Below, piece after piece: positions 54,371 to 58,267 of a stretch of 64,000 bases of DNA. The notes beneath the pieces are model-generated. The model ran no database searches and was not told where the DNA came from. It was given only the letters and a program-made list of their open reading frames with translations. Every line of letters begins with the position of its first letter. Position 1 is the stretch's first letter. Origin of the DNA: Candidatus Omnitrophota bacterium (GTDB taxonomy: Bacteria; Omnitrophota; Gorgyraeia; Zapsychrales; Zapsychraceae); the NCBI GenBank assembly GCA_015233405.1, contig JADFXT010000011.1, positions 490 through 64,489 on the forward strand. Reading direction: 5' to 3'. Made by a program: the position numbers and the translations under genes.

Positions 54371-56266
54371 TTATTTCGTTTCTATTCCCATATTATATGC
54401 ATGCGGATTTTTTGAAATCCCTCGTGTCGTTATATATTGAACAATCGCTCGTTCGAGGCGCTTCATCCGCTCAATGGCTTCTCCGCCTACAAAAATCCAG
54501 GCCTTCCTGTCGCCGTAATAAACCTCCTCAAGGACCTTATCATGCTGCCCGACAGGAAAAGACCCGACGGCCTGTTCAAGAAAACCACCAAAACGATTCG
54601 GGACGCCGACCCAAACATGACTCCTCAGATTCAACTGCTGAATACTCTGAAACTGCGACAGCCCGTCGTACAGGCATGGGAAGCCGTAAATATAAACATT
54701 CAACTTCTTTGTGACATAACCTAATTCCGGAAAAGCCAGAATTTGCGCCAAGACATACGGTGCGCCAACCGAAAATTGGGAATACTTGGATTCTATGGTC
54801 CTGGCAAGCCGCTGATTAAATTGTAAATCAATACGATACTCCAGGCTCCTTTCCAAGAATGCATGATCAGAAATGTGCTGGTCCGTCGGAAGTTTATGCA
54901 AGAACAATCCATACGCGCTCAAGAGACACCCTACCGTTAAAGTGATGATCATCCATTTCTGGATCTTTACAGATGTGATCATCAATTGTAAAGCGTAAAA
55001 CAAACAGAACACATTAAAAGGTATCAGCAACAGCCGGTAACGGTCCGGCCCGGCCATAGAGTTGACAAAAACAGCAAACCATCCGCCGGCCGCCAGAAAC
55101 ATCACCAAAGGCACATAATGGATATGAATAAAATCTAAAACGGTTGTCTTCTTCTCGACGAATCGTTTTTTCAGAAAATGTCCGATCAAAATGATGAAAC
55201 TAAAAATATAAAAATATGTGTGATAAAAATTCCGGATGGTTTTCCATCCTCCCCAAGGCCCAACCATATCCACTTTGCCGGCTTTATTGAGAATAAAAAA
55301 ATTGGCATAGACATAAAGCAGCATAAAAGCGACCATAGCCAGCCCTAACAAAACAGTTCTCTTCTTAAAACGATAGGCCGTTTCTCCGTAGAGAAAATGA
55401 AAACATGCCGCCAAGAAAACAATCCCGCAGGTAAAGATCGCAACGCCTTTGGCCATCACCGCTAAGACAGAAAAAAGGCCGGCCAAGCCCAATCGCTTAT
55501 TAATCAAATAATACATCGCGATCATGGCGCATACCGTCGCCGGCATTTCCATATTGAGCTGTTCGATCTGGCTTTGGAATAAAGGAATGGACAACAATAA
55601 GACCGCCATCAAAAGCGCGATTGTACGGCCAGCAATTTTTTGGATGATCTCCCGCAAAAGCGCAACAATCAAAGCGCCCGAGGCAAAAACAATTAAATGA
55701 TCAACCGCCAAAAAAAGTTGAGCGTTAGGAAAAAATTTCATCAAAATTCCCTGAAGCGTCGGGAAGAAAGAAAATAGATAAACCTTTGGGCCGCCCTCAA
55801 TAAATCCCGGCTGTTGGGCCAAGGCGATGTAATTAAAAGCGTGGTTCTTAAGCCAGACGGCCTCCATGAACGGGCCGCCAATCGTTTCCCCATAAGGCTG
55901 AAACAAAAGTACTTCAGGTTTAGTTAAAATAAAAAATGAAAAAACCGCCAGCCAGAATTTTTTGACCGACGCTGATTCTAAATAAAGAAGGCCGATCAGA
56001 AGAAAAACAAAAGTCGAAGTCAGGATATTTACCGGCCCTAGAAAATTTTCTTCTATGTGGCCCAAATAAACATCGAGCGGTTGAATTTCATTAAAGCCGG
56101 AGAAGATATTCAAGACCCCGAGCATCTGGTGGTGATAACAATATTGAAAGAAAAACGGAGCGATGTATTTACTGAGGAAATACAGGCCGGCGCAAACTCC
56201 AACCCCAAACAGAATTGGTTTTTTCTTGATGCTCGTAGTATTAGCTACATTCAAAATATTTGTCAT
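54371..56266 (-). CDS. large polytopic membrane protein, possible GT-C (ArnT/PMT/GtrC-like) glycosyltransferase
   Basis: 631 aa with more than 12 TM segments and a C-terminal soluble domain. The function is inferred mainly from its position at the end of the polyprenyl-P sugar cluster. Confidence 0.35.
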   Translation of the reverse strand: MTNILNVANTTSIKKKPILFGVGVCAGLYFLSKYIAPFFFQYCYHHQMLGVLNIFSGFNEIQPLDVYLGHIEENFLGPVNILTSTFVFLLIGLLYLESASVKKFWLAVFSFFILTKPEVLLFQPYGETIGGPFMEAVWLKNHAFNYIALAQQPGFIEGGPKVYLFSFFPTLQGILMKFFPNAQLFLAVDHLIVFASGALIVALLREIIQKIAGRTIALLMAVLLLSIPLFQSQIEQLNMEMPATVCAMIAMYYLINKRLGLAGLFSVLAVMAKGVAIFTCGIVFLAACFHFLYGETAYRFKKRTVLLGLAMVAFMLLYVYANFFILNKAGKVDMVGPWGGWKTIRNFYHTYFYIFSFIILIGHFLKKRFVEKKTTVLDFIHIHYVPLVMFLAAGGWFAVFVNSMAGPDRYRLLLIPFNVFCLFYALQLMITSVKIQKWMIITLTVGCLLSAYGLFLHKLPTDQHISDHAFLERSLEYRIDLQFNQRLARTIESKYSQFSVGAPYVLAQILAFPELGYVTKKLNVYIYGFPCLYDGLSQFQSIQQLNLRSHVWVGVPNRFGGFLEQAVGSFPVGQHDKVLEEVYYGDRKAWIFVGGEAIERMKRLERAIVQYITTRGISKNPHAYNMGIETK

Positions 56267-57410
56267 ACGCCGTCGATGGTAGGATATTCAGTTGGGAAGC
56301 TATCTTTATGGGCCACCGCAAAAATTTTATAAGGTCATAGCTGGTCTTATAATCCCGAAAGGTCTTCGGCGGAAGCTTCATATAGGCGTCAAATTGTTCT
56401 TGAGTAAGCCCCAAGCGTTTAATACAAAGGCCGATGACCTTGGGGTCTTCGATAACGTAACGTTCTTTAAGATGATCTAAGGCCTCCGCTTTGGGCATTT
56501 GGCCGGAACGCACTAAGGCCGCGTAATTATATTTCCGTCGGTCGATATTGAATTTCTCGCGCATCACATACGTCATCAAACTTTGATATAGATCATCAAA
56601 ATAATGCGCACCCGGATAGACCCAATCCAATTCCTGGGCGATGATTTTATCCGCTGCCGAGCGGACATAATTCTCATAATATAAAAGGGGAATGGTTTTG
56701 ATCCCACGCATGACTGTATAATAAAACATTTCCTTAAAGCACAAATTAAATCCGCCGTCCGTCGGCTTCCATTTCCTTAGCGGGAATTTTCCATAAAGCT
56801 TATGGACTTCTTTCAGATATTTTCCATCGAGATAGTTCCATTCCAGCGGCGCAATGCCTTCGGTGCGAAATGACTGGCCGATGACGAGATTCTTAATGTT
56901 TTCTTTGACCGCCACACTATAAAGAGCGGTCGCGATGCCAATGTCCGTCGGAGTACCCAGATCAGGCGTCGACGCTTCAAGATAAGCAATACGCAGGTCC
57001 TTGGATTCCCGCCAATCCGATGTGATCGTGCGCAATTCCACATCCAATTTACGCGTCGCCTTACGCATATTCTCACCGGCTACAGGATTTCCGAACCCGT
57101 CGTTAAAATGGACCGCGATCGGTCTTAATCCCCAAACTTTTTTAGCTAAATATAATGTATAGGTGCTGTCTCGCCCGCCGCTGATACCCACCACGCAATC
57201 AAACTTCTTGCCTTTTCCTTCCTTCTTGATCTGCTCAATAATTTCTTGCTGCAAGCGCTTACCTTCTTCATTAAGAGGATAGCGCTTCTCGAGTTTGTCA
57301 TGAAGCCGACAATAGGAGCACAATCCATTTTTATCAAAATTATGGCCCGGCACCGTTGTATCGACGGTGCAGCGTGTACACATTTGGTAAGGAATCGTCT
57401 TTTGATTCAT
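56241..57410 (-). CDS. N-acetyl sugar amidotransferase (WbpG/LfnA-like PP-loop enzyme)
   Basis: N-terminal Cys cluster CTRCTVD...GLCSYC and PP-loop GISGGRDSTY. Confidence 0.75.
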   Translation of the reverse strand: MNQKTIPYQMCTRCTVDTTVPGHNFDKNGLCSYCRLHDKLEKRYPLNEEGKRLQQEIIEQIKKEGKGKKFDCVVGISGGRDSTYTLYLAKKVWGLRPIAVHFNDGFGNPVAGENMRKATRKLDVELRTITSDWRESKDLRIAYLEASTPDLGTPTDIGIATALYSVAVKENIKNLVIGQSFRTEGIAPLEWNYLDGKYLKEVHKLYGKFPLRKWKPTDGGFNLCFKEMFYYTVMRGIKTIPLLYYENYVRSAADKIIAQELDWVYPGAHYFDDLYQSLMTYVMREKFNIDRRKYNYAALVRSGQMPKAEALDHLKERYVIEDPKVIGLCIKRLGLTQEQFDAYMKLPPKTFRDYKTSYDLIKFLRWPIKIASQLNILPSTAYDKYFECS

Positions 57411-57427
57411 GTTTATGCCCTTGATTT

Positions 57428-58267
57428 TTAAGTAAAGCTATATCCTTTTTTCTCTAACATTTCTCCGATGGCCGTCCCTTTTTCAGGACGCTCAGGCACT
57501 TCAAATTCAGCGACAATAAGTTCTCCTGCAAATTCATTAAATTCTCCCTGGGCGATAATTCCGTTTTTTCCCATGGCCAAAGAACATCCGATCGATTTTT
57601 TCCCTTCGTACGGCCCGCCAACAATAACCCCGACGCTGGTTGTTCCGATAATGACCAGATCATAAAGCGTCGCCAAGGTCGAATACGGCTTGATCCATTT
57701 CTCGCCATACGGGTCATCTTCTTCCGTGACGGCATAAGACACCGTCCAGGACGAAGGCGACAAAATTACCTGGGCACCCATGCGGGCCAAGGCGTGGCCT
57801 AAGCAGATCCCGTCTTTATAATTATCTGCGCAGATATTAAGGCCGATAATGCCAAACGGCGTTTCAACGACCTCGATCTTATTACCGATGGTATAAAACG
57901 GTTCCTGCTCAACGGTCAAGAGATTGATCTTATGGTGCTTCAAAAGAATTTCGCCGGAGGAATTAACCAAAATGGCGCTGTTATAAACCTTATCAGCGCA
58001 TTGCTCGGTCAAGCCTGCACAGACATAAATATGATTATTTTTAGCACTTTGACAAATCCTGTCGCTATACGGCCCGGGGATGGGCTTCGCCTCGGTGTAG
58101 GCACTCGGATGCGTCCAGGCCAAATCCAGGCATTCCGGTAAAAGACAGATATCGCAACCCTTGGATGCGGCGTCCTTGATCATTTTTTCCGCGCGCGTCA
58201 AATTACGTTCAGGCTCTCCTCCCTCGACGAGAAGCTGCCCCATGCCGACTTTCAATCTTTGTTTCAT
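57428..58267 (-). CDS. carbon-nitrogen hydrolase (nitrilase superfamily)
   Basis: Glu (CLLPECLD), Lys (HHKINL) and Cys (GLNICADN) catalytic-triad motifs. Confidence 0.8.
   Translation of the reverse strand: MKQRLKVGMGQLLVEGGEPERNLTRAEKMIKDAASKGCDICLLPECLDLAWTHPSAYTEAKPIPGPYSDRICQSAKNNHIYVCAGLTEQCADKVYNSAILVNSSGEILLKHHKINLLTVEQEPFYTIGNKIEVVETPFGIIGLNICADNYKDGICLGHALARMGAQVILSPSSWTVSYAVTEEDDPYGEKWIKPYSTLATLYDLVIIGTTSVGVIVGGPYEGKKSIGCSLAMGKNGIIAQGEFNEFAGELIVAEFEVPERPEKGTAIGEMLEKKGYSFT

What the first reader, a model, noticed from the sequence alone, without database searches (positions are those of the whole stretch)
56241..58267. Stand-alone CN-hydrolase next to a PP-loop sugar amidotransferase: a split, NadE-like glutaminase/synthetase pair?
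57428-58267 encodes a nitrilase-superfamily protein with the Glu/Lys/Cys triad motifs (LLPECLD, HHKINL, LNICADN). Seventeen nt downstream, 56241-57410 encodes a WbpG-type N-acetyl-sugar amidotransferase with a PP-loop (SGGRDS). It is established that glutamine-dependent NAD synthetase is a fusion of a CN-hydrolase glutaminase domain with a PP-loop ATP-pyrophosphatase domain, and that ammonia is channelled between them. The nitrogen source for WbpG-type amidotransferases is poorly defined. My inference is that the same two folds occur here as adjacent genes, with the CN hydrolase supplying ammonia to the amidotransferase. The alternative is that the CN hydrolase replaces the missing ArnD by hydrolysing the N-formyl group.
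Basis: inference. Interest (0 to 1): 0.55.

Follow-up and report, generated by a model that had tools for sequence, protein, structure and literature searches.

The report
Nitrilase-type ammonia supplier for sugar amidotransferase
A small amide-splitting enzyme and an ATP-dependent sugar amidotransferase form a gene pair kept together across at least seven bacterial phyla, always without the usual HisH/HisF ammonia suppliers, so the small enzyme most likely feeds ammonia to its partner, though nobody has tested this at the bench.

Summary
57428-58267(-) encodes a complete CN-hydrolase with an invariant Glu45/Lys113/Cys146 triad. After a 17-nt spacer, 56241-57410(-) encodes a NASAT/WbuX-family PP-loop amidotransferase.

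The pair is a conserved module:
- 77 of the 80 best CNH loci carry the NASAT orthologue, mostly directly downstream. The other three genomes encode it elsewhere.
- None of the 80 loci has HisH/HisF within 10 kb. Among ordinary NASAT genes of the same phylum, 21 of 29 do.
- The window's own genome holds two more NASAT paralogues, each flanked by HisH and HisF.
- All CNH-linked NASATs form one clade (support 100), beside HisH/HisF-linked ones.

The formyltransferase is rare next to the pair. Most loci have an acetyltransferase there, and Hymenobacter has no sugar genes nearby. This argues against the deformylase alternative.

Best reading: a two-subunit amidotransferase in which a nitrilase-type hydrolase replaces HisH/HisF. 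The documented parallel is the two-subunit NAD synthetase of Thermus thermophilus.

This scan had already met the same pair in other genomes. No paper describing it was found.

The parts
57428..58267 (-). CN-hydrolase (nitrilase superfamily), 279 aa. Proposed ammonia-generating (glutaminase-type) subunit.
   Evidence: PF00795 at E 9e-30. Triad E45/K113/C146 invariant. AF2 model pLDDT 90 with a complete CN-hydrolase fold; best matches are Nit2 (2w1v) and the P. horikoshii amidase (6ypa), TM 0.75-0.78. No curated NCBIfam family reaches its cut-off.
57411..57427 (-). 17-nt spacer between the CN-hydrolase stop and the amidotransferase start.
   Evidence: Sequence read directly. In related loci the two genes are 1-100 nt apart or overlap by a few bases.
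56241..57410 (-). NASAT/WbuX-family PP-loop amidotransferase, 389 aa. Proposed synthetase subunit that converts an amide to an amidine on an N-acyl amino sugar.
   Evidence: TIGR03573 at 212.8 bits, cut-off 203.2. SGGRDS PP-loop and tetracysteine invariant. AF2 model pLDDT 90.7; the best fold match by far is the Legionella NASAT 8WEX (E 8e-15, TM 0.62-0.67).
58271..58654 (-). SMR/EamA-type small membrane protein (ArnE/F-like candidate flippase), 3 nt upstream of the CN-hydrolase.
   Evidence: EamA and SMR Pfam hits and a weak ArnF hit. A homologue lies directly upstream of the CN-hydrolase in 23 related loci.
58668..59615 (-). ArnC/PgfS-like GT2 polyprenyl-phosphate sugar transferase.
   Evidence: PF00535. 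PgfS 227 bits and ArnC model 145 bits, both below their cut-offs.
59612..60589 (-). Sugar N-formyltransferase (like the ArnA N-terminal domain).
   Evidence: Formyl_trans_N and Formyl_trans_C. Present beside the pair only here and in L009 and L011. Most other loci have a hexapeptide acetyltransferase in this position.
60568..61770 (-). DegT/ArnB-type sugar aminotransferase.
   Evidence: PF01041 at E 1e-107.
61898..62878 (-). SDR sugar epimerase/dehydratase.
   Evidence: PF01370 at E 4e-54. Only weak likeness to the ArnA C-terminal domain, 45 bits.
62880..63884 (-). GFO/IDH/MocA oxidoreductase, like UDP-GlcNAc 3-dehydrogenase.
   Evidence: NF040723 at 183 bits, below its cut-off of 450.
54371..56266 (-). 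631-aa polytopic membrane protein, a GT-C (ArnT/PMT_2-like) candidate transferase. It overlaps the amidotransferase stop by 26 nt.
   Evidence: No Pfam hit. ESM-Atlas feature and structure neighbours are ArnT/PMT_2/GT39 clusters, TM 0.5-0.6. Homologues (35-42% identity) follow the pair in L001, L011, L017, L032 and L075.

Best explanation
The two genes encode a two-subunit amidotransferase.

Inferred mechanism:
- The CN-hydrolase uses its Cys146-Glu45-Lys113 triad to hydrolyse an amide donor and release ammonia. The donor is most likely glutamine.
- The NASAT-family PP-loop enzyme uses ATP to adenylate the carbonyl oxygen of an N-acyl group on an amino sugar, giving AMP + PPi.
- The ammonia attacks and turns the amide into a positively charged amidine.

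In this lineage the nitrilase-type hydrolase has taken the place that HisH/HisF paralogues (WbuY/WbuZ, AglZ) hold beside ordinary NASATs.

In the window the pair sits inside an Arn-like operon. That operon makes a 3-amino, N-formylated hexosamine, loads it on polyprenyl phosphate (GT2), flips it (SMR protein) and transfers it with a GT-C enzyme. The likely result is a cationic amidino sugar on the cell surface.

Shown: the gene pair, intact catalytic motifs, conserved linkage, exclusion of HisH/HisF, and a single origin.

Inferred: ammonia production, the donor, physical complex or channelling, and the exact sugar and acyl group.
For: Linkage:
- 77 of the 80 best CNH loci from genome contigs hold a NASAT orthologue of 57-80% identity. 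In 66 of 74 well-covered pairs it lies directly downstream on the same strand.
- The three exceptions encode the orthologue (54-57% identity) elsewhere in the genome.

Breadth: Bacteroidota, Omnitrophota, Planctomycetota, Bdellovibrionota, Acidobacteriota, Nitrospinota and Actinomycetota.

The pair is the unit that is conserved:
- In about 35 Hymenobacter species it sits between valS and aat, with no sugar genes nearby.

Complementarity with HisH/HisF:
- 0 of 80 CNH loci have HisH/HisF within 10 kb.
- 21 of 29 ordinary NASAT loci of the same phylum have them within 10 kb, and 0 of 29 have the CNH.
- In the window's own genome the two other NASAT paralogues are each flanked by HisH plus HisF/WbuZ/AglZ.

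Phylum sample of 201 genomes:
- The CNH occurs in 5, each time 0-5.5 kb from a NASAT that scores low on the family model (213-234 bits), on the same strand.

Phylogeny:
- All 80 CNH-associated NASATs form one clade (SH-aLRT 100, one change of state).
- It sits beside HisH/HisF-linked relatives, including the own-genome C6 paralogue.
- CNH and NASAT pairwise distances correlate (r = 0.89), so they are inherited and transferred together.

The family takes modular glutaminases:
- NASAT-like domains also occur fused to a class II (GlmS/PurF-type) glutaminase domain in 670-aa proteins.

Precedent:
- T. thermophilus TTC1539 (nitrilase-like) and TTC1538 (PP-loop NAD synthetase) are separate genes in one operon.
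- They form a tight complex of about 1:1 that uses glutamine (PMC3376133).

Catalytic residues of both proteins are invariant.
Against: - No biochemical or structural test exists. Complex prediction could not be run.
- No fused CNH-NASAT protein was found.
- The CNH is not a specific relative of NAD synthetase glutaminase domains. The NAD+ synthase model gives 38 bits against a cut-off of 479, and NadE is absent from the top sequence and fold matches. Glutamine specificity therefore cannot be read from homology.
- Its nearest solved relatives hydrolyse other small amides: omega-amidase Nit2, an archaeal amidase, N-carbamoylputrescine amidase and formamidase.
- 8 of 29 ordinary NASAT genes have no HisH/HisF within 10 kb. 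Lack of a linked glutaminase is therefore not in itself proof of replacement.
- The loci were collected through the CNH, and many are close kin (35 Hymenobacter), so the counts overstate independence.
Confidence: 0.65

Rival explanations
1. The CN-hydrolase does supply ammonia to the NASAT, but from a donor other than glutamine, such as asparagine, alpha-ketoglutaramate or another small amide. Alternatively it works without a stable complex or tunnel.
For: Nearest solved relatives are Nit2 omega-amidase, a P. horikoshii amidase crystallised with glutaramide, and formamidase. NadE glutaminase domains are not among them. No fusion was found.
Against: Glutamine is the donor in the only characterised nitrilase-type amidotransferase subunit (PMC3376133). 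It is also the donor for the HisH-type and class II domains attached to other NASATs.
Confidence: 0.15
2. The CN-hydrolase is an N-deacylase (deformylase or deacetylase) that stands in for the missing ArnD. It would free the amine of the lipid-linked sugar, and the NASAT would act independently on free ammonia.
For: - The window operon has a formyltransferase, an ArnC-like GT2 and no ArnD-type deacetylase. The only PF01522 gene of the genome is on another contig.
- Formamidases belong to this superfamily and are among the fold matches.
- 8 of 29 ordinary NASATs lack a linked glutaminase.
Against: - A formyltransferase accompanies the pair only in the window, L009 and L011. At least 16 other loci have a hexapeptide acetyltransferase there, and about 35 Hymenobacter loci have no acyltransferase or Arn-like gene nearby.
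- The constant partner of the CNH is the NASAT, not any acyltransferase or GT2.
- Known formamidases act on free formamide, not on N-formyl sugars (general knowledge of AmiF).
Confidence: 0.1
3. The CN-hydrolase acts after the NASAT on its product or on a related group. Examples are hydrolysis of the amidine, removal of an N-carbamoyl group, or repair of a side product.
For: - The superfamily includes N-carbamoyl amidohydrolases among the fold matches.
- A NodU/CmcH carbamoyltransferase follows the pair in several Chitinophagales/Sphingobacteriales loci.
Against: - The carbamoyltransferase is present in only about 7 loci.
- Hydrolysing the amidine would undo an ATP-consuming step.
- This reading does not explain the strict exclusion of HisH/HisF.
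Confidence: 0.05

Closest known systems
Two-subunit glutamine-dependent NAD synthetase of Thermus thermophilus (TTC1538 PP-loop synthetase + TTC1539 nitrilase-like glutaminase; PMC3376133)
   Same: A stand-alone CN-hydrolase gene sits in one operon with a PP-loop ATP-pyrophosphatase amidotransferase. In that system the products form a tight complex of about 1:1 that uses glutamine.
   Different: - The synthetase here is a NASAT, not NadE.
- The chemistry would be amide to amidine on a sugar N-acyl group, not carboxylate to amide on NaAD.
- The CNH is not a specific relative of NADS glutaminase domains, so this would be an independent recruitment.
- Nothing has been shown biochemically.
Classical acetamidino system: NASAT (WbpG/WbuX/PseA/LfnA, TIGR03573; structure 8WEX) with HisH and HisF paralogues (WbuY/WbuZ, AglZ/HisF2)
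   Same: - Same synthetase family, with PP-loop, Zn tetracysteine and fold.
- Same setting in surface-glycan gene clusters.
- The window's own genome has two such classical sets.
   Different: - No HisH/HisF occurs near any of the 80 CNH-linked NASATs. A CN-hydrolase occupies the neighbouring position.
- The CNH-linked NASATs are a separate clade that only just reaches the family cut-off.
Fused glutamine-dependent NAD synthetase (NadE with an N-terminal CN-hydrolase domain)
   Same: The same two folds are combined, and ammonia is channelled between them (established for NadE).
   Different: Here the two are separate genes. No fused form was found among the 80 loci or in a search for longer proteins. 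The synthetase family and substrate are different.
Arn pathway for lipid A aminoarabinose (ArnB, ArnA, ArnC, ArnD, ArnE/F, ArnT)
   Same: The operon logic is the same: aminotransferase, formyltransferase, polyprenyl-phosphate GT2, SMR-type flippase candidate and GT-C transferase. The outcome is also a cationic sugar on the envelope.
   Different: - There is no ArnA-type decarboxylase domain and no ArnD.
- A GFO 3-dehydrogenase-like gene suggests a 3-amino hexosamine rather than Ara4N.
- The positive charge would come from amidine formation rather than deformylation.

Membership tests
Nitrilase / CN-hydrolase superfamily (PF00795) | alpha-beta-beta-alpha fold matching the family profile | tested here: met
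   PF00795 at 104 bits, cut-off 23.2. AF2 model pLDDT 90, TM 0.72-0.78 to Nit2, CPA, AmiF and PH0642.
Nitrilase / CN-hydrolase superfamily (PF00795) | Catalytic Glu-Lys-Cys triad | tested here: met
   E45, K113 and C146 are present and invariant in 16 and in 29 homologues.
Class IV (nitrilase-like) glutaminase of NAD synthetase | Specific sequence kinship with NADS glutaminase domains or subunits | tested here: not met
   The NAD+ synthase model PRK13981 gives 38 bits against a cut-off of 479. No NadE chain appears among 51 PDB sequence hits or the top 50 fold hits.
Class IV (nitrilase-like) glutaminase of NAD synthetase | Operon partner is a PP-loop synthetase | tested here: met
   The adjacent gene has an SGGRDS PP-loop. 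It belongs to the NASAT family, not to NadE.
Class IV (nitrilase-like) glutaminase of NAD synthetase | Glutamine hydrolysis and stable complex with the synthetase | not testable with these tools
   This needs enzyme assays and co-purification. The complex predictor was closed.
N-acetyl sugar amidotransferase (NASAT; TIGR03573 WbuX/WbpG/PseA) | Score over the curated family cut-off | tested here: met
   212.8 bits against 203.2, a narrow pass. The own-genome paralogues score 346 and 259.
N-acetyl sugar amidotransferase (NASAT; TIGR03573 WbuX/WbpG/PseA) | PP-loop SGGxDS and tetracysteine CxxC...[GN]xCxxC (as defined in PMC10607449) | tested here: met
   S77-G-G-R-D-S82 and C11, C14, C31, C34 are invariant in 29 sequences.
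N-acetyl sugar amidotransferase (NASAT; TIGR03573 WbuX/WbpG/PseA) | Fold of the solved member 8WEX | tested here: met
   8WEX is the top fold match at E 8e-15 and TM 0.62-0.67. The next hits (TtuA, NadE, GMP synthetase) share only the PP-loop domain, TM about 0.3.
N-acetyl sugar amidotransferase (NASAT; TIGR03573 WbuX/WbpG/PseA) | Accompanying HisH/HisF paralogues (WbuY/WbuZ, AglZ) | tested here: not met
   None lies within 10 kb in the window or in any of 80 related loci. They are present beside both own-genome paralogues and in 21 of 29 phylum-mates. This is an associated feature, not a defining one.
N-acetyl sugar amidotransferase (NASAT; TIGR03573 WbuX/WbpG/PseA) | Product is an acetamidino (or other amidino) sugar | not testable with these tools
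   This needs glycan chemistry or an in-vitro assay.
Arn (Ara4N lipid A modification) pathway | ArnA decarboxylase domain and ArnD deformylase | tested here: not met
   The SDR scores 45 bits on the ArnA model against a cut-off of 777. No PF01522 gene is in the window, and the single copy lies on contig C47.

The most novel reading that the evidence does not exclude
A nitrilase-fold (class IV) glutaminase, so far documented only in NAD synthetase, was recruited independently as the ammonia-delivering subunit of a second PP-loop amidotransferase family, the NASATs. It displaced the HisH/HisF pair once, and the two-gene module then spread between phyla. In this organism the module would act on an N-formylated 3-amino hexosamine carried on polyprenyl phosphate. 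That would yield an N-formimidoyl (formamidino) sugar, a surface modification not described for bacterial glycans as far as I know.
Probability: 0.5. Interest if true: 0.7.

Novelty: new variant of a known kind. Interest (0 to 1): 0.55.

Why it matters
- Amidotransferases are textbook cases of modular enzymes with ammonia channelling. The nitrilase-type glutaminase is the rarest class and is known only from NAD synthetase (PMC3376133). A second, independent pairing with a different PP-loop synthetase would broaden that class and give a natural experiment in partner swapping (HisH/HisF versus class II domain versus nitrilase fold) within one synthetase family.
- It makes the still untested nitrogen source of acetamidino-sugar synthesis directly testable. 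The pair is present in about 35 cultured Hymenobacter species.
- It suggests how Omnitrophota, Bacteroidota and others put a positive charge on envelope glycans without the Arn-type deformylase.

Tried and rejected
- Fused CNH-NASAT proteins: none among the 80 loci, and none in a search of longer proteins. The tool itself rates the latter as weak evidence.
- Public sequencing runs for the pair: none was listed, and no RNA holder was listed.
- Promoter and terminator scan of 53800-64000: only consensus-level matches, no clear internal terminator, nothing usable.
- The AIRS-family gene after the CNH in L071 raised the idea of a PurL-like amidine synthase partner. It is thiL, at 325 bits, and therefore a chance neighbour.
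- Deformylase (ArnD substitute) reading: rejected as the general role, because the formyltransferase is not conserved with the pair.
- Uronamide formation, that is NadE-like amidation of a carboxylate: considered and set aside. The operon genes that were annotated include no sugar 6-dehydrogenase, and the synthetase is a NASAT by sequence and fold.
- Literature searches for nitrilase with NASAT, acetamidino or WbuX found no paper that describes the pairing.

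
Full report
**What is in the sequence.** On the minus strand, 57428-58267 is an intact 279-aa ORF and 56241-57410 an intact 389-aa ORF. They are separated by 17 nt.

The first is a complete CN-hydrolase:
- It matches PF00795 at E 9e-30.
- It carries the quoted motifs.
- Its Glu45/Lys113/Cys146 triad is invariant in 16 database homologues and in 29 genome homologues.
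- No curated NCBIfam family reaches its cut-off for it.

The second just passes the curated NASAT model TIGR03573, at 212.8 bits against a cut-off of 203.2:
- It has the SGGRDS PP-loop and the tetracysteine that the LpNASAT structure paper gives as family signatures.
- An AlphaFold model (pLDDT 90.7) matches the Legionella NASAT 8WEX far better than any other chain.

**Surroundings.** The pair lies in a tight minus-strand operon. In order, the genes are:
- a GFO oxidoreductase like UDP-GlcNAc 3-dehydrogenase;
- an SDR;
- a DegT aminotransferase;
- an ArnA-N-like formyltransferase;
- an ArnC/PgfS-like GT2;
- an SMR/EamA small membrane protein;
- the CN-hydrolase;
- the NASAT;
- a 631-aa membrane protein whose Atlas neighbours are ArnT/PMT_2-type GT-C transferases.

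This reads as a pathway for a 3-amino, N-acylated hexosamine that is loaded on polyprenyl phosphate, flipped and transferred outside the cytoplasm. No ArnD-type deacetylase is in the window. The only PF01522 gene of the genome lies on another contig.

**Is the pairing conserved?**
- The CN-hydrolase belongs to a sharply conserved subfamily. The best 120 database hits are 66-77% identical.
- A scan of one genome per species found relatives in 260 genomes. The best 80 loci were fetched with 10-kb flanks.
- tblastn shows a NASAT orthologue (57-80% identity) in 77 of the 80 loci.
- It lies directly downstream on the same strand in 66 of 74 well-covered pairs.
- The three loci without it (Chitinophagales MAGs) encode the orthologue, at 54-57% identity, elsewhere in the genome.
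- The 80 loci come from Bacteroidota (54, of which 35 are Hymenobacter), Omnitrophota (16), Planctomycetota, Bdellovibrionota, Acidobacteriota, Nitrospinota and Actinomycetota.
- Pairwise distances of the two proteins correlate at r = 0.89, as expected if they travel together.
- In a separate sample of 201 genomes of the window's phylum, the CN-hydrolase occurs in five. Each time it lies 0-5.5 kb from a NASAT that scores low on the family model, on the same strand.

**What else is conserved with it?** Very little is constant apart from the pair.
- In Hymenobacter the two genes sit between valS and aat, with no sugar genes nearby.
- In most other loci the order is aminotransferase, hexapeptide acetyltransferase, GT2, SMR, CN-hydrolase, NASAT, then a GT-C or unknown membrane protein.
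- A formyltransferase stands in the acyltransferase position only in the window, L009 and L011.

Its constant partner is the NASAT, not a formyl donor.

**The usual partners are missing.**
- Curated models name HisH and HisF paralogues (WbuZ, AglZ/HisF2) as the proteins associated with glycosyl amidation.
- The window's own genome gives an internal control. It has three NASAT paralogues. The two on contigs C44 and C6 are each directly flanked by HisH and HisF/WbuZ/AglZ genes. The window copy has the CN-hydrolase instead.
- None of the 80 CNH loci has a HisH or HisF homologue within 10 kb.
- Of 29 ordinary NASAT loci from the same phylum, 17 have them within 1.5 kb and 21 within 10 kb. None has the CN-hydrolase.
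- Eight of the 29 have no linked glutaminase at all. That is a caveat: absence alone does not prove replacement.

**Single origin.**
- A maximum-likelihood tree of 114 NASAT sequences puts all 80 CNH-associated ones, including the three whose CNH is remote, in one clade with SH-aLRT 100.
- One change of state is needed.
- Beside that clade sit HisH/HisF-linked relatives, among them the own-genome C6 paralogue, which is 44% identical.
- The non-CNH rows come mostly from one phylum, and the tree is a quick search, so the sister relation is provisional.

**Modularity of the family.**
- Several genomes encode proteins of about 670 aa in which a class II (GlmS/PurF/AsnB-type) glutaminase domain is fused to a full-length NASAT-like domain. 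The NASAT part covers TIGR03573 positions 2-337 at 144 bits, below the cut-off.
- NASAT-type synthetases are therefore found with class I glutaminases through HisF, with class II glutaminases by fusion, and here with a nitrilase-fold protein by adjacency.
- This fits a family that needs a glutaminase and has swapped it more than once.

**How it most likely works.**
- The PP-loop enzyme adenylates the amide oxygen of a sugar N-acyl group, and ammonia displaces AMP to give an amidine. This is the chemistry proposed for NASATs, and it parallels GMP synthetase by general knowledge.
- The CN-hydrolase would make that ammonia from glutamine, as the nitrilase-like subunit does for the two-subunit NAD synthetase of T. 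thermophilus. There the two products form a tight complex of about 1:1 (PMC3376133).
- That paper lists the nitrilase-like class as a glutaminase known only in NAD synthetase.

The CN-hydrolase here is not a close relative of those domains:
- Its model (pLDDT 90) is nearest to Nit2 omega-amidase, a Pyrococcus amidase, N-carbamoylputrescine amidase and formamidase, at TM 0.72-0.78 and 18-26% identity.
- NadE does not appear among the top sequence or fold hits.

So this would be an independent recruitment, and the donor cannot be read from homology.

**What remains open.**
- No fused form was found.
- No sequencing run was listed.
- Which N-acyl group is converted (the 2-acetamido or the 3-formamido) and what the final acceptor is cannot be told from sequence.

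**Prior knowledge.**
- Literature searches found the NASAT structure paper and the NAD synthetase paper, but nothing on a nitrilase-NASAT pair.
- This scan had already noted the same pairing in several other genomes with the same reading. I repeated the linkage, exclusion and phylogeny tests independently on my own loci.

**Verdict.** It is a new variant of a known kind. My confidence that the hydrolase is the ammonia-supplying subunit is about 0.65 for glutamine as donor, and about 0.8 if other amide donors are included.

Noticed in passing
L122:562-2574 (genome G203); similar long frames at G202:C402, G071:C16:39292-40332, G015:C94, G122:C9:38368-39330, G155:C2, G105:C2: Proteins of about 670 aa fuse an N-terminal class II (GlmS/PurF/AsnB-type) glutaminase domain to a full-length NASAT-like PP-loop domain (TIGR03573 at 144 bits, below cut-off). 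This is a third way of pairing this synthetase family with a glutaminase.
   Followed up: partly
own genome G000:C44:104663-107185 and G000:C6:15366-17886 (L085, L086): Two further NASAT paralogues lie in the same 2.4-Mb genome. Each has adjacent HisH and HisF/WbuZ/AglZ genes, so the organism carries three separate amidino-sugar systems.
   Followed up: yes
own genome G000:C22:40628-49276: A second ArnC-like GT2 (33% identity) lies a few kb from a paralogue of the 631-aa GT-C-like membrane protein (31% identity). This may be a second polyprenyl-phosphate sugar decoration module.
   Followed up: no
L047:12041-13666; also L051, L076, L078, L080, L037, L013: A NodU/CmcH-type carbamoyltransferase directly follows the CNH-NASAT pair in several Chitinophagales/Sphingobacteriales loci, which hints at a carbamoylated amidino sugar there.
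   Followed up: partly
L008:11080-12576; also L012, L047, L058: B12-binding radical SAM genes recur next to the pair in some Omnitrophota loci. Their role is unknown.
   Followed up: no
L041:9896-12094 and about 35 other Hymenobacter loci: In Hymenobacter the pair sits alone between valS and aat, away from any glycan cluster. The substrate pathway must be encoded elsewhere. These strains are cultured and would suit experiments.
   Followed up: partly
window 56241-56266: The GT-C-like gene start (56266) overlaps the end of the amidotransferase gene by 26 nt, and the SMR gene ends 3 nt before the CN-hydrolase start. This suggests translational coupling along the whole operon.
   Followed up: no
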